Source: a virus. From it: 64,000 bases of DNA. The DNA is taken from positions 25,130 through 89,129 of the IMG/VR virus record IMGVR_UViG_3300033153_009650. One strand, 5' to 3'. The translations under genes were made by a program, and so were the position numbers. Shown in pieces: positions 1 through 13,536 of this stretch; positions within the stretch are counted from its first letter, which is position 1, and every line of letters begins with the position of its first letter. A model generated the notes under the pieces. The model was not told the DNA's origin and did not search any database. It worked only from the letters and a program-made list of their open reading frames with translations.

Positions 1-937
1 CGTGAGCCAAACGCTTTAATTCTTTACCATGTTCTTTTGGTCCCCAATCTGGTTGTATCGGAGGCAAGGAAATATCTTGCTTTGAAATTCTAAATTCACA
101 ACATTGTTTGGCTACTTTTATGGTATTCCTCATAGCAATTAAATATTCTGAACGAGAGAAATGATTTTGTTTTCTAAAAGCTTCTGCCATTTCGTCTGCT
201 GTCCGAAGATGCAATCCTTTGAAGTTAAATTTAAAACGATTTTCATCATCCCATTTTGCCTTGGTTTGTATAGCAAGAAGAACTTCCTGGACTTTCCATT
301 CATCCTCATTTATATAATGGCAGTCATTTGTAGCTATAAAGGGAATGTTTTTATATTCTTCAAGAAGACGATAAGCTTTTATGGTATCGTGAATTTCTTT
401 TTGAACTTCGATATTGTGAGGCATTATTTCAAAATATAAATCATCACAATATTGATGTAATTTGTAAAGAAATTCCGTTGCTCCTTCTAAATGAAGAAAT
501 GAACCTGCACAAGCTGTCATAATTACAAAATCCGATAGTTCGCATCCTAATAAATAATTATAATCGATTCTTGGAATAGTTCTCCCATACACACTTCTTG
601 CTCCAGTTAGATTGGCATAGGTGAGGAGCCGGCAGAGACTTTCAAATCCATTTTGATTTTTAACAAGGAGCGTTATATGTCCTCTTTTTTCTTTTTGAGG
701 TTTAATAGCTGCATTGGGAACGATATAAGCTTCACAGCCCAGTATTGGTTTAATACCTTGTTTATTACATTCCCTTTGGAAGTTGAGAAGGCCGTCGATG
801 TTACCATGATCTGTGCAAGCTAAAAATTTGAATCCTAATTCCTTGGCTTTTTTAACATAATTTTTTACTGTACCAAATCCATCTAACTGAGAATATTCAG
901 TATGTACATGAAGGTGAGCAAACGTTTTGTTTAGCAT
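1..937 (-). CDS. dnaE: DNA polymerase III alpha subunit (N-terminal PHP domain; runs off window)
   Basis: Not in ORF track; manual translation from ATG 937 gives MLNKTFAHLHVHTEYSQLDG...TDHGN...KPILGCEAY, the PHP motifs of DnaE. Confidence 0.93.
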   Translation of the reverse strand, partial: MLNKTFAHLHVHTEYSQLDGFGTVKNYVKKAKELGFKFLACTDHGNIDGLLNFQRECNKQGIKPILGCEAYIVPNAAIKPQKEKRGHITLLVKNQNGFESLCRLLTYANLTGARSVYGRTIPRIDYNYLLGCELSDFVIMTACAGSFLHLEGATEFLYKLHQYCDDLYFEIMPHNIEVQKEIHDTIKAYRLLEEYKNIPFIATNDCHYINEDEWKVQEVLLAIQTKAKWDDENRFKFNFKGLHLRTADEMAEAFRKQNHFSRSEYLIAMRNTIKVAKQCCEFRISKQDISLPPIQPDWGPKEHGKELKRLAH

Positions 938-974: not shown

Positions 975-1328
975 TTATTTTTGTCTTCCTAAATTATAAT
1001 ATGGCTGTGTTAGAAAAATTTTCTTTCCAATAGATTTAGCATATCTTTTTTCTTTTTCAATGCCCCTTGATTGAGGCCAATATGGCAAATTAGCAATTAC
1101 CATCTCATCACACCAATCGATCCATAATCTATTGAGCTTTTCCCAATAATTAGAGCTGATTGGTAAGGATCCATATATTGCTATTGGATGAGAATGTGCA
1201 ATAGGGCAAAATACAGCATTTCCTTCGTTTATCAATTTTGCGGCTATTTTGCAGACCTCTTTAAATCTCTGTTCCCGTATGTTTGGATTTCTATGCGAAT
1301 ATGGACTTGCCAAATATATTTTTTTCAT
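975..1328 (-). CDS. DUF1937 / nucleoside 2-deoxyribosyltransferase-like protein
   Basis: IYLASPYS, FCPIAHSH, W..SRG...E motifs. Confidence 0.75.
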   Translation of the reverse strand: MKKIYLASPYSHRNPNIREQRFKEVCKIAAKLINEGNAVFCPIAHSHPIAIYGSLPISSNYWEKLNRLWIDWCDEMVIANLPYWPQSRGIEKEKRYAKSIGKKIFLTQPYYNLGRQK

Positions 1329-3631
1329 TATTTTGCCTGCGCGATATTAAATCCCCTATTTCTTTTTCCAACTGATTTCAAATTTCTTATTGCCACGTCA
1401 TAATATCCTTTCTTGAGCTCGCATCCCTTGAATTTCCGTTCAAGTTTTAAAGCAACATATCCCGTTGAACCAATTCCTGCGAACGGGTCATATATAATAT
1501 CCCCTGGATTGCTCCATAATTTGATCGCCCTTTCGATTACCCCAAGTTGCAAAGGGGCCAAATGTTTTTCGTCTTTGTTATTCTTTGCATCTCGATAATT
1601 TCTCAAAACATCTGTTTGTCTTATACCACCAGGATATTGAGGAGTTTGTCTATACCAAACAGGAGCAGCCCACTCAATCCACTCTTCTTGAGTAATCCAT
1701 CCTTGTTCTTTATTTTTTCCTGCTTTTATAGGATTAATATTTTCTCCAGGCTTTCTGAATTGTAATAAGTAATCCGCTAAGGCACAATGCAAATGAGAAG
1801 CGTCAGATCTCAATGTTTTAAAAAGCAAGCCCCTATCTTTAGTCCTGATAGCTGTTACTTGAGGATTCTTATCGATGCAAACTTCTCCATAATAAATCCA
1901 ACCTTCTTTTTCCATCATTTGTATCACTTTACCTCGGAAATCCTTAATACCAATATACCCATCTCTACTTTGAAAAGCAACTCCTTGGCATAGATGGATA
2001 CAACAATGACGACCAGGCATAGTAATTCTCAAGAGATGATCTTTATTAATGACAAATCGGAATTGCTCAATTAACTCCTCAATAGATTTTGTATTACCAA
2101 TATCATGTTGGCTATTGGTATATACATACATTCCAGGAAACGGAGGACTGAAAACAGATAGCCCAATCGAATCCGTCTTAATATTTTTCATTGTCAACAC
2201 ACTATCTCCCAATTGTAATTCCCACCCTTCCCTTTTCTTGATTTTTTCCATGTAAATCATTTCCTCTCTTTTTGTTCCAAGCTGTCCTGACAGATTCATA
2301 TTTAAGATTAACTCATTAAACATTTTTGTAGAATCTTTTTCCTTTCGTTTGATATTCTTTACCACTCCCCCTTCAATTTCCGTAGTAATAACATAAACAT
2401 TTACAGGATGCTTTTGACCAAATCGCCAGCATCTCCTCATCGCTTGATAAAACTTTTCATAAGAATCGCTTAATCCGACAAATGCCATATTGTGACAAGA
2501 TTGAAAATTCATTCCAAATCCAGCAATAGAAGGCTTTGTCACAAGACATTTGATTTTTCCATCCTGAAAATCAAGTAGCGACTGTTCCTTATGTTGTGAT
2601 GAATCAGATCCTTTAACTTCTACCGAGTTATTAATCTGCTTGGAAAGTAAATTTGACTCTTTATTAAGATCGCACCAAATTAACCATGTTTCATTTGATT
2701 TGTTTATTATTTCAGAACATAGTTCGATTCTACTTTCAATACTATTTTGTCTTGCAATTTGTCTGTCCCTCAAACCTCTTGCCTCAGTCGCAAATAATTC
2801 TCCTGGTTTGATATCTCTGTTTGTTGCAGGAATTGTTTTTTGAATTATCCTTAATTCCGGCAAGATAAATCCATCGTTGTCATAGCCTAAATCAGAAGGA
2901 GAACGCAGGGCTACAGACCACGATGCAAGCCACTTCCAAAATGCTTGTTTTGCATGGCCTTTGAGAACCCATTTTTGGACCATATCCTGAGCCCGATTGG
3001 TAAAGAATAACGATTTAATCTCTTTCTCTGTCATTATCCCAAGGAACTCGGCATGATTGATTATTTCAAGCAGATCATTTGGCGCTGGGGTAGCCGTACA
3101 AGCGAATCGAAAAGGAACTTGAGAACCAAACTCTGTAATTGCCTTTCTGAATTTGCCATCAAATCCCTTCAAAATTGAACTCTCGTCCAATACAATCCCT
3201 CCGAGATTATCAGAATTGAAATTCTTCAACATTTCATAGTTAGTAATATTGATTCCCTTTTTAATATTAGCTTGCCTACGACAAATATTCACAGGGACAT
3301 GGAATTTTATTCCTTCTCTTTGTGTCTGCTTTGACACGGCAAGAGGAGCGAATATCAAGACTGGAAGTTTGGTTTTTTTCACAACATGGTTTGCCCAATC
3401 CAACTGGATAGGGGTCTTGCCCAATCCACAATCCGCAAAACAGGCAGAGCGGCCTCTCATCAATGCCCATTTTGTGATATCTTTTTGAAAGTTAAACAAC
3501 ATCGGATTCAACTTATTGGAAGAAAGTCGAAATCCCGAGTTGATATCCTCTATAGTTTTCTGTTCGAGAAATTTTTGGTATTTAAGATCTTCCATTTTTT
3601 GATTTTTTGATTGGTTAGTAAAATTCTCCAA
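1328..3631 (-). CDS. SNF2-type helicase fused to N4/N6 DNA methyltransferase (start may be ATG 3595)
   Basis: DCGLGKT, LDESS, TATP, QAMRRCWRFGQ helicase motifs; C-terminal SPPF and DPFAGIGSTG MTase motifs in beta-class order. Confidence 0.9.
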   Translation of the reverse strand: MENFTNQSKNQKMEDLKYQKFLEQKTIEDINSGFRLSSNKLNPMLFNFQKDITKWALMRGRSACFADCGLGKTPIQLDWANHVVKKTKLPVLIFAPLAVSKQTQREGIKFHVPVNICRRQANIKKGINITNYEMLKNFNSDNLGGIVLDESSILKGFDGKFRKAITEFGSQVPFRFACTATPAPNDLLEIINHAEFLGIMTEKEIKSLFFTNRAQDMVQKWVLKGHAKQAFWKWLASWSVALRSPSDLGYDNDGFILPELRIIQKTIPATNRDIKPGELFATEARGLRDRQIARQNSIESRIELCSEIINKSNETWLIWCDLNKESNLLSKQINNSVEVKGSDSSQHKEQSLLDFQDGKIKCLVTKPSIAGFGMNFQSCHNMAFVGLSDSYEKFYQAMRRCWRFGQKHPVNVYVITTEIEGGVVKNIKRKEKDSTKMFNELILNMNLSGQLGTKREEMIYMEKIKKREGWELQLGDSVLTMKNIKTDSIGLSVFSPPFPGMYVYTNSQHDIGNTKSIEELIEQFRFVINKDHLLRITMPGRHCCIHLCQGVAFQSRDGYIGIKDFRGKVIQMMEKEGWIYYGEVCIDKNPQVTAIRTKDRGLLFKTLRSDASHLHCALADYLLQFRKPGENINPIKAGKNKEQGWITQEEWIEWAAPVWYRQTPQYPGGIRQTDVLRNYRDAKNNKDEKHLAPLQLGVIERAIKLWSNPGDIIYDPFAGIGSTGYVALKLERKFKGCELKKGYYDVAIRNLKSVGKRNRGFNIAQAK

Positions 3632-3717
3632 AACGATTCGAGGTTATGTCTGACTTTGGGAAGTCTTTTGTAAGAGACGGTTTCTCTCATAATGGTATCT
3701 GCAAAATAAATTTTCAT
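3550..3717 (-). CDS. 55-aa micro-protein A, resembles N-terminal segment of DpdA/TGT-like barrel
   Basis: MKIYFADTIMRETVSYKRLPKVRHNLESFWRILL...; ATG overlaps clamp stop (ATGA); below ORF-track cutoff. Confidence 0.7.
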   Translation of the reverse strand: MKIYFADTIMRETVSYKRLPKVRHNLESFWRILLTNQKIKKWKILNTKNFSNRKL

Positions 3718-4712
3718 TTAGAAGCCAAAGAAATAACATGTTGAAAATTATCGCCTTCAAAAAGAAGAGACATTTCTCCAATGGTAACTTCTTTGAGTCT
3801 ATTCAAAATTTCTCTAAGAAATACCGGATGTATGAAAAGTTTAATTTCTTCTCCTGTGTATCTAATACGATGTTCTTCTTCAATAAAACCAAGAGGACCT
3901 TGCCCTTTACATATTAAAGTTGATTTTTTAAGAGTCAAGGAAATGATCAAATCCTGTTCAAATTCTGTTTTGGCCAGAATTTCTGCCCTATCAATAGATT
4001 CGGCAAGACTGACAGGGAATTTTACTTTCTCTCCTTCCACTTTCAAAAAAGATTCTATATCAGGATATTCAACATCCATGATTCGAGTACTGAAGATTGT
4101 TTTTTCTTCATTAATAAAATGAAGCCATTCCTTTTGTAGAGAATATTTTATTGGAGAATAGTTGATAAGATGAGTGGCTGCATTCCCCGGGAGAAAAAAT
4201 TCTTTTTTAATGGACTGATTCATAATTCTTTTTGTAATCCGAAATTTATCAGTAGATAAAATTTTGTTTTTAATAATTCTAAGATTAGTAAGTTCCGGTC
4301 TGGTCATATCTTTACTCACGGAAAACAAACAGAACTTAACTGCATTGGAAAAATCATCTGATAAAGGAAGCCATGTTTGAATATCATCGAAGAAAAGAGG
4401 AAGCTTGTGTTCTTGTGTAATATTGATATGGGCTTTGCTTCTCTTTCCTTTAATAATAAATTTATCTTCTTCCATTTGAATGTCTAATTCTTCGTCAGGT
4501 AATTTACTGATTAAAGCAAAAAATTCATTGGCTTTGACTGCCCCTTGTAATCCTGTCTTCATCATTTGTAGAATAGAAATTTGATCATTGTAAGTTTGGA
4601 TTGTCGTTTCATTGAAAACAAAATGAGTCGTGAATTCAATGATTTCTTTATTTGCCAATCCAGGTTTAACTTTAACCAAAGCTTCTACTAACTCTTGTCT
4701 ATTAATTTTCAT
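3714..4712 (-). CDS. dnaN: DNA polymerase III beta sliding clamp
   Basis: 332 aa; SKDMTRPEL, STDKFRI, YPDIE motifs; near dnaE. Confidence 0.85.
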   Translation of the reverse strand: MKINRQELVEALVKVKPGLANKEIIEFTTHFVFNETTIQTYNDQISILQMMKTGLQGAVKANEFFALISKLPDEELDIQMEEDKFIIKGKRSKAHINITQEHKLPLFFDDIQTWLPLSDDFSNAVKFCLFSVSKDMTRPELTNLRIIKNKILSTDKFRITKRIMNQSIKKEFFLPGNAATHLINYSPIKYSLQKEWLHFINEEKTIFSTRIMDVEYPDIESFLKVEGEKVKFPVSLAESIDRAEILAKTEFEQDLIISLTLKKSTLICKGQGPLGFIEEEHRIRYTGEEIKLFIHPVFLREILNRLKEVTIGEMSLLFEGDNFQHVISLASK

Positions 4713-4851
4713 AATGTCTCCTTTTTAATTTTTTTAATCCACATTATTAATGATTCTTTCTGAAAAGCCAGTTCCTCAATAACATAGTAAAATGAAATAA
4801 GCCGTTTATGAATATAATATATAATTCTGTTCCCGCAAAGTATATTTTCAT
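4709..4851 (-). pseudogene. micro-gene B (frameshifted), same family as A
   Basis: MKIYFAG.. then -1 frame HKRLISFYYVIEELAFQKESLIMWIKKIKKETL*; both ends are ATGA-coupled; 143 nt. Confidence 0.6.
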
Positions 4852-5000
4852 TTTTTAGTCATGTATTTCTTAATTTCCTGATTAATATTTTCCCTTTTAC
4901 TTAGGAAATAATATGAAAGTAATCTGTTATAAGCTTTAAGTTTATTTAATGCTTCCTCTTGGCTTTTTTCTTCCAACCAGGTAGCAAGAATAATTTTCAT
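4848..5000 (-). CDS. 50-aa micro-protein C, same family as A
   Basis: MKIILATWLEEKSQEEALNKLKAYNRLLSYYFL...; ATGA overlap with DpdA-like stop. Confidence 0.72.
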   Translation of the reverse strand: MKIILATWLEEKSQEEALNKLKAYNRLLSYYFLSKRENINQEIKKYMTKK

Positions 5001-5944
5001 ATCTCAAAACCTCCTGATGGTCTTTTTTTGAAGGGCCAAGGCCATTCTGGCATTGATTTTTCCAAGTCCAAAAAATAAATAATATTTAATTCATCTCTTT
5101 GTTTATAATCATTACTAAGTCCTGGTTCAATCACTGTTTCAACTATTTTGTCCTTTGACCAGCCAAAAGTGACTCTTCCATCCTTGAGCCCATGAATTCC
5201 TCTTTGGGCATCAGCATCTTGTTTACCAAACCATCTTTCTCCATCCTTGAGTTTATAATTATTATCTACCTTTTTCAAATCTGACTTTCCTAATTTATAT
5301 CCTTTTTCCTCGAAGTATTGAAAAATGATGTCCTGCTGTTTAGGAGAAAAAGTATTAAAATGTTTATTTACTTCTTTTTGGGAAGGAGACTTACTTGATA
5401 TAGCTACCTTCCAGGAATCCTCATCATAAATCCATTCTCCTTGTTTATATTTTGGAATGTAAATTGATCCTGTTCGACTTGTCATTACCCAGGACGTACT
5501 GTCTACACTGTACCAGGGATATCTAAGCATAAGTTTGAGAGAAGTTAAACCAAAGCCATGTATTTTATGAGTAGGTAAATAAGAATTGCTTTCAGGACAT
5601 ATTATAGAAAAGATGTAATCGTAAAATCTTGCCCTGACTGGAGTAGCTACTAAAGCGGCTCCTCCTAAACCAAAATATTCATATTCCAAAACTTTTCGTA
5701 AATATTTTTCATCTTCTTTAAAGTGATAAACTGGTAAGGGAGAGAGTCCTTGTCTTTCCATCTCTTTTTGATTTTCCCAAGTTTTTTCGGGACTGTTTAA
5801 ATCATCAAGATTAACATACACTTCTAAATATTGTTTATGCTCATAAATAAAATCTATATACTTTTGCAAAGAAATTTTTGCTCCTTTACTCCATGCACTG
5901 TAAGCCCCAGAGTCAAGAAATAAGTTTATTTTTTCCTTTCTCAT
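4997..5944 (-). CDS. DpdA/TGT-like guanine transglycosylase (apparently N-terminally truncated barrel)
   Basis: LFLDSGAYS, VNLDD, PVYH, GLGG, IHGFG, YSVDSTSW motifs; lies in que gene cluster. Confidence 0.85.
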   Translation of the reverse strand: MRKEKINLFLDSGAYSAWSKGAKISLQKYIDFIYEHKQYLEVYVNLDDLNSPEKTWENQKEMERQGLSPLPVYHFKEDEKYLRKVLEYEYFGLGGAALVATPVRARFYDYIFSIICPESNSYLPTHKIHGFGLTSLKLMLRYPWYSVDSTSWVMTSRTGSIYIPKYKQGEWIYDEDSWKVAISSKSPSQKEVNKHFNTFSPKQQDIIFQYFEEKGYKLGKSDLKKVDNNYKLKDGERWFGKQDADAQRGIHGLKDGRVTFGWSKDKIVETVIEPGLSNDYKQRDELNIIYFLDLEKSMPEWPWPFKKRPSGGFEI

Positions 5945-5958
5945 AATGGTCTCCTCAA

Positions 5959-6636
5959 CTATATTTTTTCAAGAATGACATATATCCAATTTTGGGGTGC
6001 TTTGAAATATCTGATAATTTTAAAACCAAAGTCCTTTGTTAAAATTTCAAAGGCTTTTCTTGTTAACATACAAGTATGCTCAAGATGATAAAACATTGGT
6101 ATATGGGCATCAAATGAATCCCCATCGTTTGTGCTTATAAAGAATCTACCACCAAGTGTCAACATCTTATAAATAAGTCCAAAGGTTTCTCTAATGTCAT
6201 TTATGTGCTCAACAACATCTACTAAGAAGACATTGAGATAAAAAAGATTCCTTCTATAACTCTCAATTGAACCTATGTATTTACTAATATTACAATCTGA
6301 ATATTCCATTCTCAATAAATCTTTTATTTCCGAGTAAAAGACCCTATATTTGGAATCTACTTTTCTTCTAACTAAGTAAGTAAAATCACCGTCCGCTGCT
6401 CCAAACTCTATTGAGTCCCCATTAAGAATATAATCCTCGAACCAAGCATATCTGGCTCTTTGATGTAATTTTAATCCCTCATCCCCTTTATACCAATAGT
6501 CAGATTCATGATAAAACTCTATATTTACATTAGTAGATCGAAAGGTACAACCACAGTTAGTACATTTCAAAATACCTTGTGGATAGATTAAATTTTTACA
6601 TGATCCAGAACCACATATCTTACATCTTATATTCAT
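5959..6636 (-). CDS. class I SAM methyltransferase with N-terminal Zn finger
   Basis: CxxC..CxxC, EFGAADG, DVVEH, L..GG.F. Confidence 0.8.
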   Translation of the reverse strand: MNIRCKICGSGSCKNLIYPQGILKCTNCGCTFRSTNVNIEFYHESDYWYKGDEGLKLHQRARYAWFEDYILNGDSIEFGAADGDFTYLVRRKVDSKYRVFYSEIKDLLRMEYSDCNISKYIGSIESYRRNLFYLNVFLVDVVEHINDIRETFGLIYKMLTLGGRFFISTNDGDSFDAHIPMFYHLEHTCMLTRKAFEILTKDFGFKIIRYFKAPQNWIYVILEKI

Positions 6637-7268
6637 ATCTTCTCCAGGCTTTTACAATAAGATAAGGTTTTTTCACAATTACAAATTAAATCATTATCCA
6701 CAAAACCACTTAGTTTTATTTTTCCATCAAATTCAGGTAAATTACAACAATATTTTTCATGTATTCTAATCAAGGTTATATAAGTTAGTAATGGAATATT
6801 ACAAAGGCACTTTCCACATTTAGGACAAGGCATTATTCCACATTTAGGACAATCCATTACAGAAATATCAATTTGAAAACCACAGAAGAAACAAGGATGT
6901 TTTTCGTCCGGAGAAATAAATCCATGTTTAAATCTCCAACATGAGTTATGAAAGTTGTAACTTAAATATTTTTCAAGATCTTCAGGAATTGTTGGAATGG
7001 CTTTATCATCAATCATTACATTACATACTGGTTTTCTTCCATACATTATATTAGTGTATTTTACATTGTATTTTACTAACCATTCCTCAGTCATTTGTTT
7101 ATCTTCAACATATCGGGCAGTAAAGAGAGTAATCATGTGTCCTAAGTCCACAAGTCGATTAATCTTACCTATTGCCTTAAAGTTAGGGGTCCTGTAAGGA
7201 TAATAATCTTTTCCCCATCCTTCTGACTCTAAAGTTAATACTCCATCAATGTCAACTAAGATAAGCAT
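6633..7268 (-). CDS. HAD-family phosphatase with Cys-rich C-terminal domain
   Basis: VDIDGVL, FTAR, KP, IDDK motifs; repeated CPKC. Confidence 0.8.
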   Translation of the reverse strand: MLILVDIDGVLTLESEGWGKDYYPYRTPNFKAIGKINRLVDLGHMITLFTARYVEDKQMTEEWLVKYNVKYTNIMYGRKPVCNVMIDDKAIPTIPEDLEKYLSYNFHNSCWRFKHGFISPDEKHPCFFCGFQIDISVMDCPKCGIMPCPKCGKCLCNIPLLTYITLIRIHEKYCCNLPEFDGKIKLSGFVDNDLICNCEKTLSYCKSLEKI

Positions 7269-7848
7269 CTATTTCCCACCATTTTTCACCTCTTGGATTT
7301 TCCATCCAAATATAAACATGATTATTTTTAATTTTATTAACACGTCTATAGTCCACTGAATTTAACTTTTTATTAGAACATCCCCATTTGTGATTTGCGA
7401 GATTATTGATATCTTTATAATCGTTATTTTTTTTTGGTTTTGGAAATCCTACAATAATTACTTTACCATATAATTTCAATTTATCTAAACATTTGAGAGC
7501 ATCTTTCTCTCTCAAATGTTCAAAAATTTGCTGACCTAAAATAATATCAAACTTCTGGTTAAAACAACGCTTCCTTAGAATATAATCTACAACATCTATT
7601 TTATAAATCTCATTATAAATCTCATTATTTAGTTGGTCAAATCTTTTGAAGCTTCCAAGATCAATACCAACCAACTGTATGTTCCAACCATAGACCATTC
7701 TCATTAGACTACCATATAATCCTTTGCCACATCCAATATCTAAAAAAGAAAAAGCTTTATAATTTAAACCGATCATATAGTCTATTAATCCAAATAATTC
7801 ACTCACTTGTTTTATATTACTAACGCCGTGTCCAAAAGGTCTTCCCAT
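7252..7848 (-). CDS. class I SAM methyltransferase
   Basis: LDIGCGKG, FDII, FEHL. Confidence 0.8.
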   Translation of the reverse strand: MGRPFGHGVSNIKQVSELFGLIDYMIGLNYKAFSFLDIGCGKGLYGSLMRMVYGWNIQLVGIDLGSFKRFDQLNNEIYNEIYKIDVVDYILRKRCFNQKFDIILGQQIFEHLREKDALKCLDKLKLYGKVIIVGFPKPKKNNDYKDINNLANHKWGCSNKKLNSVDYRRVNKIKNNHVYIWMENPRGEKWWEIDAYLS

Positions 7849-7860
7849 GTGTTCTCCTTT

Positions 7861-8514
7861 TTAAGTGAGATAGGCATCCACTTCTCTTATAATTGCTACA
7901 TTCCTCTCTGGTAAGTATTGTCCTTTTTTAGCCGCTTGATAATAATTTAACATTAGTATTCGATCTACAAATTCAATATCAACTCCATGACTTCGGAGGA
8001 CAGTCCATTTTCTAAAACAAGAAGGACAAGCTCCACAATAATTACTTACTTCAGTTGATGAGTAACAAGAAATGGTATCGAGTAATAATTCCGGCTTACC
8101 AACATTCTTTATAAACCACTTGACAACTTCCGCTTTCGACATTAGCCAGAACGGACTGAATACTAAAATACCTGGGTTCATAATAGATAGTAGCCGACTA
8201 AATTCTTTAAAGATAAATTCATTTTTGTCTGATACGACATCATCTTTAACTCCAGCAATACAAATCTCTTGATCATACTTCACTGCAAGCATTGCTAAAT
8301 ACAAGTTTCTAAAAGGGATGTACGCTTTTGAACCGACCTGTCTACTGTTAAGATTAAGTGTATTGTCGATAATTGTATCAGGTATCAGTTTTTTAATTAC
8401 CCGTAACTCTCTATGAGTATAGGGAGTTCCTAAATCGAAATAAACAGTTTGAGGTTTATTTAAATAATGATAAGCAACAAAGGAGTCTATACCACCAGAA
8501 AACAGTAAAATCAT
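7861..8514 (-). CDS. queC: 7-cyano-7-deazaguanine synthase-like
   Basis: SGGIDS PP-loop, IPFRN, SCY...CGACPSC. Confidence 0.85.
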   Translation of the reverse strand: MILLFSGGIDSFVAYHYLNKPQTVYFDLGTPYTHRELRVIKKLIPDTIIDNTLNLNSRQVGSKAYIPFRNLYLAMLAVKYDQEICIAGVKDDVVSDKNEFIFKEFSRLLSIMNPGILVFSPFWLMSKAEVVKWFIKNVGKPELLLDTISCYSSTEVSNYCGACPSCFRKWTVLRSHGVDIEFVDRILMLNYYQAAKKGQYLPERNVAIIREVDAYLT

Positions 8515-8523
8515 TTTATCTCC

Positions 8524-8865
8524 TTATTTTTGTTTTTCATTACAAAATTTTTTGTATCCAACTACAGAAAAAATATTAATTCTATCTTGCATATGTTCTT
8601 TAGAATTTTTTCCTACTCGTTCCTCGGAATGCCAGTAATCACCGAAAACTTCTATAATAAGTTTTCTTCCATTTACATTTACAAAGTCTGGACATTTGCC
8701 TCGAATGATAAGACTTCCATCTCCGGCATATTTCCACTCGTTTGGAAAGTTTTCTTTATATTGGGCTATGGAAATATTATGTTTGAATAATAGATGTTTG
8801 TTAGAAATTACTTTGTATTTTTTCTTACATAATTGACAAATTACATAATCTTTATTTTCTATCAC
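8524..8865 (-). CDS. shortened homing-endonuclease-like protein (Zn finger plus Vsr/DUF559-like nuclease remnant)
   Basis: CQLC..HL..KH.....YK..FP joined directly to PDF...IIEVFGDYWH. Confidence 0.6.
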   Translation of the reverse strand: MIENKDYVICQLCKKKYKVISNKHLLFKHNISIAQYKENFPNEWKYAGDGSLIIRGKCPDFVNVNGRKLIIEVFGDYWHSEERVGKNSKEHMQDRINIFSVVGYKKFCNEKQK

Positions 8866-9880
8866 TTGAATAATCTCCTATATGTACATAACTATCGAAT
8901 GGTAGTTTCCCAGCCTTGATATAATGGGCATCAATATGTGTCCCCCATAAACAGCCAGGACAATTTTCCTTTACAATAGGTTTCCATATGTCTTGAAATT
9001 CTTGCCAGCGATTGTACAACTCAGTTACACAAATTTTTTTACCCGATCCAAGATCAGGTTGAAAGTCATCGCAAGGGTAAACAAAGCCATCACAATCTAC
9101 AGTAACCCATGAAGGAAATTCCTTATAATTAGCACAATTCCATGAGTAGTCTGTTAGTAGATTAGGATTGTCCCTTAATAAGTCAATGAACAGCCTACTT
9201 GTATGACATAATTCTCCCTGTTCCTTTAATTCGTATAACTCATTTAAGAAGGAGATAAACTGAACTATGTCTTCATTACGGAAAAGTAGTTCTTGCATTT
9301 CTGGATAATTTTTGCATTTGCTTCCAGGCTGTCCCCTATCCTGATGTATAAGGTCAAAAAAACTCCAGATTTTTTTCTGACTCATTTTTTTCACTGAATC
9401 AATAAATAGTTTATAGTTATTTCTTGTCAATGTTGTAATAGCCGCAACATCCCGAACTCGCCCTAACTGGAGAAATTGAGTTAAGGCGGGAACGGCGAGA
9501 TCGTTTTTGAGAGAACTTGATTTGTCTATTCCTTCAATATCAAAACTCATTGATAAAGATTTTGCCCCAGACAAATAAAGTTGTTCTACCTTGTTCCAAA
9601 AATTAGGTACCATTCCTGAAGTTATAACAGTTGTATGAATTCCTAAAGATTCGGTATATCCTACAACTTCTGGTAATTTTTCAAAATCGTATAAAGGCTC
9701 AGCCCCATAGAATGCAATGAATCCACATCCTATTTTTTTCAAATTATCAATTCCTTTTAACCAACTTTCACAAGATAGGGAATTACTTTTTCCAGTAACC
9801 ATCCCACAATAACTACATCTAAGAGGACAGATTCTGGTCCATAAAATTTCAGCTTTTACTATTTCCATTATCTGGTCCAC
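8852..9880 (-). CDS. radical SAM protein with C-terminal SPASM/twitch-like cysteines
   Basis: CPLRCSYC, YGAEP, DG.VYPC, CPGC. Confidence 0.88.
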   Translation of the reverse strand: MDQIMEIVKAEILWTRICPLRCSYCGMVTGKSNSLSCESWLKGIDNLKKIGCGFIAFYGAEPLYDFEKLPEVVGYTESLGIHTTVITSGMVPNFWNKVEQLYLSGAKSLSMSFDIEGIDKSSSLKNDLAVPALTQFLQLGRVRDVAAITTLTRNNYKLFIDSVKKMSQKKIWSFFDLIHQDRGQPGSKCKNYPEMQELLFRNEDIVQFISFLNELYELKEQGELCHTSRLFIDLLRDNPNLLTDYSWNCANYKEFPSWVTVDCDGFVYPCDDFQPDLGSGKKICVTELYNRWQEFQDIWKPIVKENCPGCLWGTHIDAHYIKAGKLPFDSYVHIGDYSSDRK

Positions 9881-10431
9881 AATGACATTAATTCACTTCT
9901 GGCAGCGAAACCTTTGTTAGAATCCTCCAAAAATATTCCTTTCAAAGAGCTGTATCCCATAATAGAATTTTGTTTTTCAACTCCTCTACAAGCAATACAA
10001 AGGTGTTTTGCCTCGGTTAGACACGCTGCTCCAAGAGGATTTAAATATTTCATTAAAGTATTAGTAACTTGTTCACCAATTCTTTCCTGTATTTGAAGTC
10101 GATGAGAAAAAATATCTAAAAGACGGGCCATCTTAGATACTCCAATAACAGGTCCATTAGGAATGTAAGCAATAAAAGCATTACCATAAAATGGAAGTAT
10201 ATGATGTTCGCACATACTATAAAATTCGATATCCTTCAAATAAATAAGTCCTCCGAATTGTTCCTCTTCATCTTCAAAGGTCTTGATTACATCTTCTGGA
10301 CTTTCACTATATCCTGAGAATAAATGTTTAAATGATTCAATAACTCTCTCAGGGGTTTCAATCAGTCCTTCTCTACTTGGATCGTCTCCTGTTAACTTTA
10401 GGAGTTCGGTTACTATTTGTTTTTCTTTCAT
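9868..10431 (-). CDS. folE: GTP cyclohydrolase I
   Basis: REGLIETPERV, SMCEHH, SKMARL, RLQIQER, HLCIACRG. Confidence 0.96.
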   Translation of the reverse strand: MKEKQIVTELLKLTGDDPSREGLIETPERVIESFKHLFSGYSESPEDVIKTFEDEEEQFGGLIYLKDIEFYSMCEHHILPFYGNAFIAYIPNGPVIGVSKMARLLDIFSHRLQIQERIGEQVTNTLMKYLNPLGAACLTEAKHLCIACRGVEKQNSIMGYSSLKGIFLEDSNKGFAARSELMSLWTR

Positions 10432-10456
10432 AAAGGCTCCTTAAAACAAAAAGGTT

Positions 10457-10503
10457 CTGGTGGGAATATTCTCAAGTTCTTCTCTGAAGATTTTTCCCAC
10501 CAG
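10457..10503 (-). terminator. hairpin, probable terminator or processing site upstream of folE
   Basis: 10-bp inverted repeat CTGGTGGGAA/TTCCCACCAG; T-rich tract follows on - strand. Confidence 0.5.
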
Positions 10504-10534
10504 TCCTTATATCTTTAAATTTTTCCTTTCCTCT

Positions 10535-11026
10535 TTATGAGACCACTTTGAAAACGCCCTTGTTCTCTTTGACTTCAAGTCCTTTATCCTTTTTGAGATG
10601 TTGGAGATGACCTTTAACCCTGCCTTCTTTTACTCCTAATTTCTCAGCGGCTTTCTCAATGGTAGTTCCTTTGAAAAAGAGTTCATCCAATGCGGCTGAC
10701 TGAGAGCCAAGCTTATGGCCATATCTGCTTTTCTCTTTGACAGATTTTGCTTTCTTTTCTTTCGGAGGTTTTGATTCCGATGGTTTTGATTCTGGAGGTT
10801 TTGGCATTTCAAATCCCAGGACCTTTAAAGTAGCAATTGATTCTTTTGTCAACTTGTCACCAGGCTCCAGCATTTTTGTGACCTTTTTGATCTCATTTAT
10901 CAATTTATCTTTCGTGGTTTTCTGCGCTGTTGGTAAGGCTGGTTCAAGATCCATAAGGTTGTTCAGGTCCTTTGCCAATTCAATCAATTCCTTTACTGTG
11001 GGTTCATTATTTTTCTTTTTCGCCAT
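10535..11026 (-). CDS. Lys-rich protein with C-terminal HTH-like segment
   Basis: TIEKAAEKLGVKEGRVKGHL; strong RBS. Confidence 0.55.
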   Translation of the reverse strand: MAKKKNNEPTVKELIELAKDLNNLMDLEPALPTAQKTTKDKLINEIKKVTKMLEPGDKLTKESIATLKVLGFEMPKPPESKPSESKPPKEKKAKSVKEKSRYGHKLGSQSAALDELFFKGTTIEKAAEKLGVKEGRVKGHLQHLKKDKGLEVKENKGVFKVVS

Positions 11027-11072
11027 TTTCTTTTCTCCTTTCCTTTTTTTTGATTAAATGGTTAATGACTGT

Positions 11073-11510
11073 CTATCTCTCTTTCCTTATAAGATTCCCT
11101 CCTTTAAGAATACTATGGATTTCAGGATTCCCAGACAGGTTGTCTCCAAAACGGTTAGTAAATCCAAATCCATGTAATGTCCCTAAACCTTCATTTATCA
11201 AGCACGATTCATATATCTTTCGTAGAAGATCTGGTTGATTTTTTGGAAAATATTTTTTTACAGAATTTACTTGTTTAAGGAATTTTGTTGTTTTTGTTTT
11301 TGCTGATCCTTTTACAGATTTGATTATTGGATGATAAAAATTAACAAGCATATCCATTATACTCAAGTATAAACTTTTCAAGGAAGGATAGGGCCAGTAG
11401 TTAAGATTTGGCATACTTAACAAAATATCCGACATTATCTCGTTAGGATTGGCGTCATAAGGATAAGATCTTTTCTTGCCATTGATAATTATTAAAATAG
11501 ATTCTTTCAC
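11073..11510 (-). CDS. hypothetical protein
   Basis: 145-aa ORF behind promoter repeat and AAAGGAGG. Confidence 0.6.
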   Translation of the reverse strand: MKESILIIINGKKRSYPYDANPNEIMSDILLSMPNLNYWPYPSLKSLYLSIMDMLVNFYHPIIKSVKGSAKTKTTKFLKQVNSVKKYFPKNQPDLLRKIYESCLINEGLGTLHGFGFTNRFGDNLSGNPEIHSILKGGNLIRKER

Positions 11511-11518
11511 TCTTTCAC

Positions 11519-11565
11519 CTCCTTTCTAAGTATTATATATTATTTTCAGATGTTTTTAATATTTT
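11519..11565 (-). promoter_or_regulatory. repeated promoter plus RBS cassette, copy 1
   Basis: 47 bp with 3 mismatches to 17561-17607; contains TATAAT and AGAAAGGAG on - strand. Confidence 0.7.
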
Positions 11566-11572
11566 TTTTGTT

Positions 11573-12226
11573 TTAAATCCCTCTTTTTTCAGAATCCCAA
11601 ATGATTTTATGTAGTTGCACATTCACAGTCACGTCCCAAAACTTATCCTTTTTAATCATTGAGATTAAATCTGCCGGACTAAACTTTCCAAATACTGTGC
11701 TCAATGCCACATTAGCTTGACTCCCCAAATCTCTTAATCTGGAAACTGTTTCCTTTGCCAGATAGTATTCTTCTGGGCTTTGAAGAACCAACTTAATCCA
11801 ATCACAAGAAGTCAAACGAGTAAAGTTTTTTGTAATCATCTTTTCCCAACACCATAACTTGTAATCAACAATCCAACCAAAATTTTCGTCATATAAATCT
11901 TGGGGAAGCTCAATACTTCCATTTGTTTCTACTGTGACTTTATGCCCTTTATACAGAAGCTCTTTAATTAAAGGAATTAATTCTCTCACCTGCAATAAGG
12001 GCTCTCCTCCAGTAATCGTAATTTTTTTACAACCAATAGTCTTAACAAGATTAAAAATAGCGGCTTGTTCATATATTTCCCCAGCATTTGCTTTCTGAGC
12101 ATACTTGGTATCACAGTAAGGACATTTTAAATTGCATCCGGCAAAACGAATAAATGTTGACATTGTTCCTTGATGAAAAGTGCTAACTTCTCCGTCGATA
12201 CTGGTAAAGATTTCGTTTATAATCAT
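11573..12226 (-). CDS. queE: 7-carboxy-7-deazaguanine synthase (radical SAM)
   Basis: EIFTSIDGE, FIRFAGCNLKCPYCDT, TGGEP, VETNG, VQLHKIIW; ATG 12226 has RBS. Confidence 0.95.
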   Translation of the reverse strand: MIINEIFTSIDGEVSTFHQGTMSTFIRFAGCNLKCPYCDTKYAQKANAGEIYEQAAIFNLVKTIGCKKITITGGEPLLQVRELIPLIKELLYKGHKVTVETNGSIELPQDLYDENFGWIVDYKLWCWEKMITKNFTRLTSCDWIKLVLQSPEEYYLAKETVSRLRDLGSQANVALSTVFGKFSPADLISMIKKDKFWDVTVNVQLHKIIWDSEKRGI

Positions 12227-12355
12227 TTTCTTTCTCCTTTCCAAAATAACGTTTCATTATAAGTTTCCATGTTATTTTTCTGAATGGAATTGATCCTACA
12301 GCTATATCATAATATGAGCAGTATGCTTATCTCCGGCAGCTAAGTAAATTTTCAT
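12183..12355 (-). pseudogene. micro-gene D (frameshifted/shortened), same family as A
   Basis: MKIYLAAG.. coupled to queD stop (TAATG); -1 frame continues SYYDIAVGSIPFRKITWKLIMKR. Confidence 0.55.
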
Positions 12356-12762
12356 TAAGCCGTCACCTCTGCGTATGATGTTGGGGTTTCATAGAGACGA
12401 ACAAAAGATATCTTTCCCTCTATCCTCATCTCCTCCCACCTATTCTGTAAACGACTCAGTATCCAAATAACCATATTCTCCGCTGTTGGCATTTCCCAAG
12501 GGAAGTTAATCCCAAGTTGCCCGGGTTCTGATTTTAAATCATTGAGCAAAACATGATCAACATGATCAAGAATCTCCTGTTTTACTATGATTTTTAAATG
12601 GGTAAAATCAATCACCATTCCCGAGTCATAGTCTATCTTTCCTTTAACTCCGACTAAAAGTCGGTATCCATGGCCGTGAAGACTTTTACATTTTCCCTTA
12701 TATCCCGGCAGACGATGAGCCGCATCAAAAGTAAATTCCTTAATCACTGTTACCTGATTCAT
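12355..12762 (-). CDS. queD: 6-carboxy-5,6,7,8-tetrahydropterin synthase
   Basis: FTFDAAHRL, C..LHGH, GMVIDF, PTAEN, YETPTS; ATG 12762 has RBS (ORF track extends to 12876). Confidence 0.95.
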   Translation of the reverse strand: MNQVTVIKEFTFDAAHRLPGYKGKCKSLHGHGYRLLVGVKGKIDYDSGMVIDFTHLKIIVKQEILDHVDHVLLNDLKSEPGQLGINFPWEMPTAENMVIWILSRLQNRWEEMRIEGKISFVRLYETPTSYAEVTA

Positions 12763-12868
12763 TTTTCCTCTCCTTTCGTTTATAGTTTTTAGCCATTTAT
12801 ATAATTCATCTCCGATAGCTTCTCTTAAGTTTTTTTCTTGATGTTTTGCTATATTTTTTATTCTTGAT

Positions 12869-13536
12869 CTATACATCTCTCACTCTCTGGATTATGGCAA
12901 TTTTGCCTTCTTCAAACTGAAATCCATTGCAGATTTCCTTAAGAATTATAGGAGTCTGTTTGTTTCTGCTAAATCCAATATTAACCCATCGACCGTTAAA
13001 TGAAGTCAAGGCATTAATAATATATTTTGGATTAATCTTTATTTCAATCTTTTGTTTGATAGATTTATCTGTATCAATTTTTCCTTCCATTTTTCCTATG
13101 TCAAGATTTAAAACTTTTATTTTAAGACTACGTCCAAAAATAAGACTCATAGCGATATATCTTTTGTCTGTCAATATTTTGGCATATCTTGCCAGATGTA
13201 ATAATTCAATTCGATTAATTCTTATTATATGATCAAAATCTTTCTGTAATATATTGCTAATATCTGGATATTTCAGATTTTCACTGATGGGAGATAAAAT
13301 TATAATATTCTCTTTCTTTTCTAAACTATATAACCCTTCCTCTCTCTGTTGACCAAAATAACCTATATGAAGACTATATCCATCACTGGCAAACAAATTT
13401 CCTTGTTTCACATATAAATAACCAAGAGATTTAAATATTACAGTTTCTTTCATAACCTTGGCACAAAATGTAACTGTATCAAAGTCAGATCTATTCCTTT
13501 TCCTGTCAATTCTAATTTGTTTTATTTTTTTTTCAT
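12869..13536 (-). CDS. second, two-domain sliding-clamp-like protein; 5' end out of frame at A9 tract
   Basis: FASDGYSLH, YPDI, INPKYII clamp-like motifs; frame open upstream of 13453 up to A9 run after ATG 13536. Confidence 0.6.

What the first reader, a model, noticed from the sequence alone, without database searches (positions are those of the whole stretch)
3550..12355. Apparent split DNA-guanine transglycosylase: truncated DpdA-like core plus four paralogous ~50-aa micro-genes
Seen: the DpdA/TGT-like ORF (4997-5944) starts almost directly at LFLDSGAYS. Four micro-genes below the ORF-track cutoff share MKI(Y/I)(F/L)A...S(Y/F)(Y/W): A 3550-3717 (MKIYFAD...HNLESFW), B 4709-4851 (MKIYFAG...RLISFYY), C 4848-5000 (MKIILAT...RLLSYY) and D 12183-12355 (MKIYLAA...SYYD). 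Each is translationally coupled (ATGA or TAATG) to the gene upstream: clamp, C, DpdA-like and queD respectively. A and C are intact; B and D are shortened and one base out of frame. Knowledge: in TGT-fold enzymes the DSG motif is internal to the TIM barrel. From memory, unverified, full-length phage homologues begin with a K.Y.AG...L.S(F/Y)Y segment. Inference: the first barrel elements are supplied in trans by interchangeable micro-subunits, which could tune target sequence, substrate or timing of 7-deazaguanine insertion and diversify against modification-dependent defences.
Basis: partly seen in the sequence, partly recalled or inferred. Interest (0 to 1): 0.9.

Follow-up and report, generated by a model that had tools for sequence, protein, structure and literature searches.

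The report
Split phage DpdA with micro-subunit genes
This uncultured phage encodes its DNA-modifying enzyme DpdA without the first quarter of its barrel fold, and a conserved 50-residue gene just downstream appears to supply that quarter as a separate small protein, a layout I found in none of the four DpdA papers I checked.

Summary
The DpdA-like ORF (4997-5944, minus strand) starts 10 residues before its catalytic DSG motif. Its model aligns to tRNA-guanine transglycosylase (TGT) from residue about 92 and to bacterial DpdA from residue 85, so barrel elements beta1-alpha1-beta2-alpha2 are missing.

The four micro-ORFs A-D exist and overlap the upstream stop codons as described. C matches a model of the missing module strongly and A weakly. 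B and D are frameshifted, shortened remnants.

In 80 related IMG/VR loci such modules lie only on the core's strand (251 hits versus 0) and fall into conserved types. C's type has 38 members, none fused to a core, all just after it, and is under purifying selection.

A complex model puts C's two strands between the core's last and first barrel strands (score 0.89, best control 0.42).

Best reading: a two-gene split barrel made of core plus C, with A a possible alternative. "Four interchangeable subunits" and tuning of target specificity are not shown. Free modules are about as common beside full-length cores.

I found no description in the DpdA papers I searched. Earlier follow-ups in this scan reported the same layout in other genomes.

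The parts
4997..5944 (-). DpdA-like core, 315 aa. It is a three-quarter TIM barrel (beta3-beta8 plus a C-terminal region) with catalytic-type D11 in LFLDSGAYS and invariant D148 in YSVDSTSW.
   Evidence: phrog_887 E 1.2e-44, residues 2-218 on profile 52-256/509. AF2 pLDDT 87.8 with six barrel strands. Aligns to Z. mobilis TGT 92..365, QTRT1 96..403 and DpdA 7ui4 85..409, Z 12.0-12.7. D11 and D148 are invariant in 44 of 44 sequences.
5951..5956 (-). Shine-Dalgarno GAGGAG 6 nt before the core ATG (5944)
   Evidence: Sequence read. It supports the short start as a real start.
4848..5000 (-). Micro-gene C, 50 aa. It is an intact beta1-alpha1-beta2(-alpha2) module of the conserved 'ATWLE...NRLLSYYFL' type, and its ATG overlaps the core stop (ATGA).
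   Evidence: i-E 8.7e-10. Cluster of 38, 0 fused. Alignment A2. dN 0.13 against L006 with synonymous sites saturated. Complex score 0.89 against best control 0.42.
5010..5015 (-). Shine-Dalgarno AGGAGG 9 nt before C's ATG, inside the end of the core gene
   Evidence: Sequence read.
4709..4851 (-). Micro-gene B, a module remnant. MKIYFAG is in one frame and KRLISFYY... in another, and the alpha1 region is shortened around a TA-rich run.
   Evidence: L006 carries about 200 nt more here, holding a partial module and the N-part of the B-type module.
3550..3717 (-). Micro-gene A, 55 aa. It is an intact but divergent module of the 'HLESY' type, has an ATGA overlap with the clamp stop, and its tail overlaps the start of the helicase-methylase ORF.
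   Evidence: i-E 0.0079 over 81 sources and 5.3e-4 in the genome alone. 37% and 42% identical to modules L011:5986 and L083:6915. Only residues 1-9 align to the C-type profile.
12183..12355 (-). Micro-gene D, a module remnant in the queD-queE slot. MKIYLAAGDKHTAHIMI* is followed by SYYDIAVGSIPFRKITWKLI in another frame.
   Evidence: It resembles the 'AAV...LLSYYDL..PFRK' type of L063:11747 and L032:11665. L011 and L008 have intact modules in the same slot.
3714..4712 (-). Sliding-clamp gene (DNA pol III beta-like) between B and A
   Evidence: Weak Pfam DNA_pol3_beta domains, all below the curated cut-offs. Conserved position in related loci.
7861..12876 (-). 7-deazaguanine precursor genes upstream of the core: QueC-like 7861-8514, radical SAM 8852-9880, FolE 9868-10431, QueE 11573-12244, QueD 12355-12876.
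   Evidence: NCBIfam. FolE E 1.4e-63 and QueD TIGR03367 E 1.4e-27 are above their cut-offs. QueE E 2.2e-51 and QueC E 2.1e-10 are below theirs.

Best explanation
The phage's DNA-guanine transglycosylase (DpdA-like, 7-deazaguanine insertase) is a naturally split (beta/alpha)8 barrel. The 315-aa core carries strands beta3-beta8 and the catalytic DSG aspartate. The 50-aa protein C is translated from the overlapping downstream micro-gene. It supplies beta1-alpha1-beta2(-alpha2) and inserts between beta8 and beta3 to close the barrel and finish the substrate-facing rim. A, after the clamp gene, is a possible second module of another type. B and D are decayed relics of module turnover in gene slots that relatives fill with intact modules.

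Shown: the missing elements, the homology of the modules, the conservation and selection of C's type, and the gene layout.
Inferred: physical assembly and activity.
For: 1. The core lacks the elements.
- In 3 of 3 annotated full-length phage homologues inspected, the CDS starts 52 codons before the point that aligns to core residue 1.
- Structural alignment starts at TGT residue about 92 and bacterial DpdA residue 85. The model has six barrel strands.
- No other DpdA exists in the 89-kb genome, which CheckV rates 100% complete.

2. C encodes the missing elements.
- Its HMM i-E is 8.7e-10 over profile positions 1-48.

3. C's type is a selected protein.
- It has 38 members in the window and 80 loci, none fused, all starting 851-1747 nt after the DSG motif.
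- R26, L27 and S29 are invariant.
- Window against L006 gives 22.8 synonymous and 15.2 non-synonymous differences, dN 0.13, with synonymous sites saturated. In the 15 of 46 pairs where dN/dS could be computed it is 0.08-0.31.
- A profile search finds 163 clusters at E <= 1e-10, and 147 of the best 150 are under 110 aa.

4. Other module types occur both fused and free directly upstream of cores, which is a Rosetta-stone type of argument. GTPG-type: 3 of 7 fused. GNVGIISRE-type: 1 of 4 fused.

5. 40 of 42 loci with a short core have a free module at i-E <= 1.

6. Complex model.
- Score 0.89, best of 3 controls 0.42. That mark was reached by 58 of 80 solved complexes and 2 of 110 mismatched pairs.
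- The runs agree in at least 92% of contacts, and the partner's pLDDT is at least 88.
- C 26-30 pairs with core 8-10, C 2-5 pairs with core 146-148, and C 17-23 lies on core 284-295. This is the canonical beta8-beta1 and beta2-beta3 closure.

7. Both genes have strong ribosome-binding sites, and C is overlap-coupled to the core.
Against: - Free modules are about as common beside full-length cores (27 of 31) as beside short ones (40 of 42). They are therefore not tied to truncation.
- C's own type was never seen fused to a DpdA core: 0 of 38 in the loci, and none of the 5 unusually long or two-stretch hits I read among the best 150 representatives.
- AF2 of a natural fused form (P0076) left residues 1-50 at pLDDT 31-51 with no strands. 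That model does not show the module in the barrel.
- AF2 models the core alone at pLDDT 87.8.
- The complex pass may come from likeness to solved TGT and DpdA barrels, because these are halves of one fold. My own alignments were used, so the calibration counts hold only roughly.
- Only C was tested, not A.
- There are no expression or protein data.
Confidence: 0.62

Rival explanations
1. The micro-proteins are regulators or competitors rather than obligate subunits. They dock at, or exchange with, the N-terminal quarter of DpdA and so time, inhibit or redirect the enzyme. The core has some activity or stability without them.
For: Free modules, including C's type, sit beside cores that carry their own fused module in 27 of 31 long-core loci (examples L014, L057 and L062). 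27 of 28 long forms keep a Met where short forms start, so both long and short isoforms could exist and be partnered differently.
Against: In this window no fused module exists and no other DpdA is in the genome. A barrel lacking two strands is not expected to be stable (established knowledge of the fold). 40 of 42 short-core loci keep a module.
Confidence: 0.15
2. The short core works without any module, for example as a homo-oligomer that closes its barrel by strand exchange or as an open six-stranded form. C and A then do something unrelated to the barrel.
For: 90 of the best 120 homologues are short forms, so the short form is successful. AF2 folds the core alone confidently. One short-core locus (L041, a 5.2-kb contig cut at the core) shows only an MRLYFAG start after the core, with no full module.
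Against: C and the other types carry exactly the beta1 and beta2 motifs of full-length enzymes and are syntenic with the core. The model places C in the gap with at least 120 confident contacts in each run. I ran no homodimer test.
Confidence: 0.13
3. All four micro-ORFs are non-functional debris, meaning 5' fragments of dpdA genes left by recombination and gene replacement.
For: B and D are frameshifted and shortened. The window and its 98%-identical relative L005 differ by the presence or absence of a module gene. 15 split modules were found in the related loci.
Against: C's type is conserved across loci whose cores are only about 40-55% identical. It keeps intact frames and start codons and has dN/dS of 0.31 or less where computable. 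All 251 hits lie on the coding strand. C has a strong ribosome-binding site.
Confidence: 0.07

Closest known systems
Phage DpdA of the Queuovirinae type (e.g. Pseudomonas phage PaMx25 tgt, Shewanella phage S0112, Microcystis phage Me-ZS1; phrog_887)
   Same: The core is 38-39% identical over residues 1-220 to S0112, PaMx25 and Me-ZS1. It has the same DSG and SVDSxSW motifs and the same gene context of queD/folE, dpdA, clamp and polymerase. Their first 52 residues carry the M(R/N)I(F/Y)LA...LESYHY pattern seen in the micro-proteins.
   Different: Those enzymes are single polypeptides. Here the first 52 residues are absent from the core and are encoded by separate micro-genes, with the intact C downstream of the core (a permuted gene order). 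No cultured-phage record matched a C-type member, L057:10897-11046.
Bacterial DpdA (S. Montevideo, PDB 7UI4) and tRNA-guanine transglycosylases
   Same: TGT-like (beta/alpha)8 fold (Z 12.4 to 7ui4, 12.7 to QTRT1) with the catalytic Asp on beta3. In the paper's passages, Ins1 in the beta1/alpha1 loop helps form the DNA-binding surface and Ins2 in the beta2/alpha2 loop flanks the active site (PMC10164549, passages).
   Different: The structural alignment begins only at DpdA residue 85 and TGT residue about 92. The core has a single Cys, so the CXCX2C...H zinc motif is absent (sequence). It gives no Pfam hit and no PDB sequence hit.
Engineered split TIM barrels (HisF-N/HisF-C half-barrel complementation; quarter-barrel evolution models)
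   Same: A (beta/alpha)8 barrel assembled from separately made fragments. The module here is one (beta-alpha)2 quarter. This comparison is recalled from my own knowledge and comes from no call.
   Different: Those are laboratory constructs or evolutionary models. This is a natural, conserved, two-gene arrangement with several paralogous quarter types.
Phage contingency loci (Gomez, Barrick and Waters, bioRxiv 10.1101/2025.10.21.683753; abstract and outline seen)
   Same: In related loci, 13 of 15 frame-split modules break at an (AG)n tract that encodes RERE. (AG)>=4 is about 14-fold enriched in modules: 18 in 27.8 kb against 60 in 1.30 Mb.
   Different: This does not apply to this window. A has GAGAGA, B has TATATA, and C and D have no such tract. 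Only 1 of 38 members of C's type has (AG)>=4.

Membership tests
DpdA / TGT superfamily | TGT-like (beta/alpha)8 fold | tested here: met
   The core model aligns to TGTs and to DpdA 7ui4 at Z 12.0-12.7 over 199-224 residues. Foldseek's 20 best hits are all TGTs, at E about 6e-3 to 2.5e-2. Only strands beta3-beta8 are in the core.
DpdA / TGT superfamily | Catalytic Asp at the end of beta3 in a DSG motif (Asp95 in bacterial DpdA) | tested here: met
   D11-S12-G13 are invariant in 44 of 44 aligned homologues. The alignment offset (core residue 1 or 2 to TGT 92 or 91, and core 2 to DpdA 85) places D11 at about TGT 102 and DpdA 94-95. Asp95 is named in PMC10164549.
DpdA / TGT superfamily | Second conserved active-site Asp near the end of the barrel (D256 in bacterial DpdA) | tested here: inconclusive
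   D148 in YSVDSTSW is invariant in 44 of 44 sequences. I did not check its residue-level superposition on D256.
DpdA / TGT superfamily | Structural zinc site CXCX2CX22H | tested here: not met
   The core has one Cys (sequence). The three Queuovirinae DpdA sequences read also lack a CXCX2C motif, so this separates the core from bacterial DpdA and TGT but not from phage relatives.
DpdA / TGT superfamily | Complete eight-stranded barrel in one polypeptide | tested here: not met
   The core starts at the equivalent of residue 53 of full-length phage DpdA, TGT residue about 92 and DpdA residue 85. The model has six barrel strands.
DpdA / TGT superfamily | Guanine to 7-deazaguanine exchange in DNA | not testable with these tools
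   Only context is available: FolE, QueD, QueE and QueC-like genes lie upstream.
Two-gene split enzyme (fragment complementation) | The fragments are homologous to adjacent parts of a single-chain relative and co-occur | tested here: met
   The module HMM, started from N-termini of full-length relatives and iterated with free modules, hits C at 8.7e-10. 40 of 42 short-core loci have a free module, though so do 27 of 31 long-core loci.
Two-gene split enzyme (fragment complementation) | The fragments bind and rebuild the fold | tested here: inconclusive
   The model supports binding: score 0.89 against best control 0.42, with barrel-closing strand pairs. It is a prediction and may reflect likeness to solved barrels. 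AF2 of a fused form left its module unplaced.
Contingency locus (repeat-driven phase variation) | A slippery repeat inside the gene that sets its frame | tested here: not met
   In this window no (AG)>=4 tract occurs in A-D, and B's frame break lies at a TA-rich run of only three units. It is met in relatives, where 13 of 15 split modules break at (AG)n.

The most novel reading that the evidence does not exclude
One catalytic DpdA core is a chassis for plug-in quarter-barrel subunits. The conserved module types differ mainly in the beta1/alpha1 loop, which in bacterial DpdA helps form the DNA-binding surface. Each type would give the core a different DNA-motif or 7-deazaguanine-base preference. 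A phage would set its modification pattern by which micro-genes it keeps (here C and perhaps A), and in relatives by repeat-driven switching of individual modules. That would make the pattern a moving target for modification-dependent and restriction defences.
Probability: 0.22. Interest if true: 0.92.

Novelty: new variant of a known kind. Interest (0 to 1): 0.76.

Why it matters
- DpdA is treated as the signature single-protein enzyme for 7-deazaguanine DNA modification in phages (PMC10516641, passages seen). A large uncultured clade appears to build it from a three-quarter barrel plus a roughly 50-aa micro-protein.
- It would be a natural example of a TIM barrel assembled from a quarter-barrel fragment, which bears on models of barrel evolution.
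- The several conserved module types offer a testable way in which one enzyme could change DNA-target specificity.
- It gives a concrete function to a family of at least 163 clusters of unannotated micro-proteins.

Tried and rejected
- Pfam gave nothing for the core or for A, B and C. The PDB sequence search gave nothing for the core at E <= 10.
- blastn of 3500-6000 against cultured phages found no match.
- tblastn with full-length N-termini against the window was too insensitive for the micro-ORFs. It found only the core, a weak match to A and the first 7 residues of D. I replaced it with an HMM.
- PHROGs: C alone hit phrog_27551 weakly (E 0.011). At E <= 0.01, 0 of 36 C-type members hit any PHROG, so I dropped that lead.
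- tblastn of a C-type member against cultured phages found no match.
- AF2 of a natural fused form (P0076, alignment A3) was meant as a positive control. Residues 1-50 came out at pLDDT 31-51 with no strands, so it is uninformative.
- Sequencing runs: none was listed and no RNA holder was listed.
- A against the C-type profile aligned only 9 columns, so A is not C's type.
- I rejected a module hidden upstream of the core in another frame. The six-frame scan found none, and the methyltransferase gene ends 14 nt upstream.
- I rejected a second DpdA elsewhere in the genome. There is one match in 89 kb.
- I did not test A, or a core homodimer, in a complex, because the cap is one job.
- Literature. 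One search searched DpdA + 7-deazaguanine + phage: 39 papers, 20 listed. One search searched DpdA / split / TIM barrel. I ran 'find' for split, truncated and N-terminal in PMC10516641, PMC6884629 and PMC10484667. None describes a split DpdA.

Full report
WHAT IS THERE

The window is 64 kb of an 89,129-base IMG/VR virus record that CheckV rates 100% complete. All genes in the finding lie on the minus strand. Their order is:
- queD (12876-12355)
- D (12355-12183)
- queE (12244-11573)
- two unknown ORFs
- folE (10431-9868)
- a radical SAM gene (9880-8852)
- a small 113-aa ORF (8865-8524)
- a QueC-like gene (8514-7861)
- a methyltransferase, a HAD-like gene and a second methyltransferase
- the DpdA-like core (5944-4997)
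- C (5000-4848)
- B (4851-4709)
- a sliding clamp (4712-3714)
- A (3717-3550)
- a helicase-methylase fusion

The core/C, C/B, B/clamp and clamp/A junctions are ATGA, and the queD/D junction is TAATG. The core has GAGGAG 6 nt before its ATG. C has AGGAGG 9 nt before its ATG.

THE CORE IS A DpdA THAT LACKS ITS FIRST QUARTER

- Pfam and a PDB sequence search gave nothing.
- PHROGs gave phrog_887 (queuine tRNA-ribosyltransferase) at E 1.2e-44. The match starts only at profile position 52.
- tblastn against cultured phages found 188 records, all under 60% identity. All 40 listed alignments start at query residue 1.
- In 3 of 3 annotated homologues I opened (PaMx25, S0112, Me-ZS1), the annotated CDS begins 156 nt upstream of the match. 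Those 52 residues read M(N/R)I(F/Y)(M/L)A(A/G)...LESYHY(V/I)... before VFLDSGAFS. Core residue 1 aligns to their residue 53.
- AF2 of the core (44-row alignment) gave pLDDT 87.8 and pTM 0.81. It shows six barrel strands at 8-10, 40-44, 72-74, 90-94, 127-130 and about 146.
- Foldseek's 20 best hits are all TGTs, at E about 6e-3 to 2.5e-2.
- VIA-align places core 1/2..~301 on Z. mobilis TGT 92..365 (Z 12.0-12.5), on human QTRT1 96..403 (Z 12.7) and on S. Montevideo DpdA 7ui4 85..409 (Z 12.4, rmsd 3.4, 215 aligned).
- The DpdA structure paper (passages) places Ins1 (residues 16-36) in the beta1/alpha1 loop, Ins2 (54-68) in the beta2/alpha2 loop and the catalytic Asp95 next to Ins3.

The core therefore begins at beta3 and lacks beta1, alpha1, beta2 and alpha2.

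THE MICRO-ORFS ENCODE THAT QUARTER

I built an HMM from 29 N-termini of full-length relatives. I searched all six frames of the window and 80 related IMG/VR loci, then iterated the HMM with 83 free modules.

- C scores i-E 8.7e-10 over profile positions 1-48.
- A scores 0.0079 over positions 1-49, and 5.3e-4 when only the genome is searched.
- B is split. MKIYFAG scores 0.24 in one frame and ...KRLISFYYVIEELAFQKESL scores 0.0037 in another.
- D keeps only MKIYLAA (8.5, not significant alone). In another frame it has SYYDIAVGSIPFRKITWKLI, which resembles the 'AAV..LLSYYDL..PFRK' module type of L063 and L032.
- At i-E <= 1 the hits number 251 on the core's strand and 0 on the opposite strand. 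At <= 10 they number 271 and 14.
- In the whole genome the same four sites give the five best hits, and every other hit has i-E >= 0.8.

THE LAYOUT IS WIDESPREAD AND ORDERED

The core has 1632 homologues at E <= 1e-5 among 3022 candidates. Of the best 120:
- 90 start 3-17 residues before the Asp of the DSG motif.
- 29 have that Asp at position 40 or later. 26 of these carry a full N-module and 3 are N-terminally cut.
- 1 is intermediate.

I classified the window and the 80 loci as 42 short cores, 31 long cores and 8 ambiguous (open frame upstream but no module detected).

| Core type | Free module at i-E <= 1 | Full-length free module at i-E <= 0.01 |
|---|---|---|
| Short | 40 of 42 | 30 of 42 |
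| Long | 27 of 31 | 25 of 31 |

- The two short-core exceptions are L041 and L082. L041 is a 5.2-kb contig cut at the core, with only an MRLYFAG start after it. L082 has a module-like ORF at i-E 2.8.
- Eight of the most distant short cores (L049, L061, L065, L066, L067, L080-L082) carry a divergent 'LYLSGNFPQL...YHRLMTFYY'-like module just after the core, at i-E 0.03-2.8. L070 and L071 carry a different weak module-like ORF there, at i-E 1.0.
- Clustering 166 near-complete modules gave conserved types.
- C's type ('ATWLE(D/E)..QG..LTK..NRLLSYYFL...Y.KTG') is the largest, with 38 members. None is fused, and all start 851-1747 nt after the DSG motif, that is, after the core.
- Other types are sometimes fused and sometimes free directly upstream of the core: GTPG 3 of 7 fused, GNVGIISRE 1 of 4, VPGGG 6 of 6.
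- 27 of 28 long forms keep a Met where short forms start. I computed no background expectation for a Met in that 13-residue window.
- Synteny is conserved across the 11 loci I checked. In those I checked, modules occupy recurring slots: queD-queE (L011, L008; window D), core-clamp (window C and B) and clamp-polymerase/helicase (L008, L073, L077; window A).

C IS UNDER SELECTION; B AND D ARE RELICS

- The 36-row C-type alignment has M1, R26, L27 and S29 invariant. T7, W8, Y30 and Y46 are at 90% or more. Mean column identity is 36%.
- Window against L006 (core 70% identical) gives 22.8 synonymous and 15.2 non-synonymous differences, dN 0.13, with synonymous sites saturated. In the 15 of 46 pairs where dN/dS could be computed it is 0.08-0.31.
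- A profile of C's type finds 387 representative clusters at E <= 0.001 and 163 at <= 1e-10 among 1.84 billion proteins. Of the best 150, 147 are under 110 aa.
- The five unusual hits I read are two tandem-module proteins, one 207-aa two-module protein, one fusion to an HNH-like endonuclease and one fusion to an unrelated helical protein. None is fused to a DpdA core.
- L006 has about 200 nt more between C and B. That stretch holds a partial module and the N-part of the B-type module, so the window's B looks like a deletion chimera.
- The 98%-identical relative L005 has a 61-aa module gene where the window has a 194-aa clamp-fragment ORF. Module genes therefore turn over quickly.

DOES C FIT THE GAP?

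The complex model of core plus C (own alignments A1 and A2) supports binding but does not show it.
- The score is 0.89 and the best of 3 controls is 0.42.
- That mark was reached by 58 of 80 solved complexes and 2 of 110 mismatched pairs. The counts hold only roughly because my own alignments were used.
- The runs agree in at least 92% of contacts, and the partner's pLDDT is at least 88.
- The lowest-error pairs are C 26-30 with core 8-10, C 2-5 with core 146-148, and C 17-23 with core 284-295. That puts beta2 beside beta3, beta1 beside beta8 and alpha1 on the last helix, which is the canonical closure of the barrel.

These are halves of a fold with many solved structures, so the pass may partly be memory of TGT barrels.

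Against it, AF2 of a natural fused form (P0076) left residues 1-50 at pLDDT 31-51 with no strands. That control is uninformative.

MOST LIKELY MECHANISM

The enzyme is a heterodimer of core and C (confidence about 0.6).

A is intact and matches two type-mates at 37% and 42% identity, with an HLESY beta2 motif like that of Queuovirinae DpdA. It may be a second module, but its support is weak, and it aligns to C's type only over 9 residues.

The module types differ mostly between beta1 and alpha1. The bacterial DpdA paper assigns the corresponding loop (Ins1) to the DNA-binding surface and Ins2 to the active-site flank. Specificity switching by alternative modules is therefore plausible but untested.

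Free modules are equally common beside full-length cores. This means they are not merely patches for truncated genes, and a regulatory or exchange role is a serious rival.

REPEATS

In relatives, 13 of 15 frame-split modules break at an (AG)n tract encoding RERE, 1 breaks at G8 and 1 is an in-frame stop. (AG)>=4 occurs in 18 of 166 modules (0.65 per kb) against 60 in 1.30 Mb of background (0.046 per kb).

This resembles phage contingency loci (preprint abstract). It does not apply to this window, where A has GAGAGA, B has TATATA and C and D have none. Only 1 of 38 members of C's type has such a tract.

KNOWN OR NEW

The enzyme family is known. The split with micro-subunit genes is absent from the four DpdA papers I searched by terms and from two full-text searches. 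Supplements were closed.

No cultured phage matched a C-type member, and no PHROG family covers the type.

Earlier follow-up notes of this scan describe the same layout in at least four other genomes, and one adds the repeat observation. They are AI notes and not independent evidence. I reached the repeat result before reading them.

VERDICT

I class this as a new variant of a known kind, with interest 0.76.

Noticed in passing
window 8524-8865 (-): A 113-aa ORF lies between the radical SAM and QueC-like genes. About 290 nt of it (8553-8839) are absent from the 98%-identical relative L005, so it looks like a recent insertion. It has a CxxC start and no confident family (phrog_22215 at E 0.006 only).
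   Followed up: partly
window 12869-13453 (-); L005:3203-3388: A 194-aa ORF resembles the C-terminal part of a clamp / processivity factor (phrog_947, E 2.2e-10). It sits upstream of queD. In L005 this 655-nt stretch is replaced by 162 nt that carry a 61-aa N-module micro-gene.
   Followed up: partly
L030:10471-13209: An N-module of the 'SVGH...ILFSYYDL..PFRK' type is in frame, with no stop, with a UDG / 3'-5' exonuclease / family A DNA polymerase ORF (912 aa). In L008 and L073 the same module type is a separate micro-gene just before that polymerase.
   Followed up: partly
L005-L084 (e.g. L023:170-318, L055:88-236, L025:6057-6214, L006:6525-6669): Frame breaks in module genes fall at (AG)n tracts that encode the conserved RERE motif (13 of 15 split modules). 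(AG)>=4 is about 14-fold enriched in modules over the rest of the loci.
   Followed up: partly
long-form homologues P0021-P0123: 27 of 28 full-length forms keep a Met 4-16 residues before the DSG Asp, exactly where short forms start. This suggests recent fusions or dual start sites.
   Followed up: partly
window 5959-9880 (-): The precursor cluster carries extra enzymes: two SAM methyltransferase-like genes, a HAD/phosphatase-like protein with Cys-rich ribbons, and a radical SAM protein with weak, sub-threshold radical SAM/SPASM-family matches. They suggest an unknown further-tailored 7-deazaguanine.
   Followed up: no
window 1328-3631 (-): A 767-aa fusion of an SNF2-type helicase (phrog_16, E 2e-66) and a DNA methyltransferase (phrog_67, E 8e-31). 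Its start overlaps the tail of micro-gene A.
   Followed up: no
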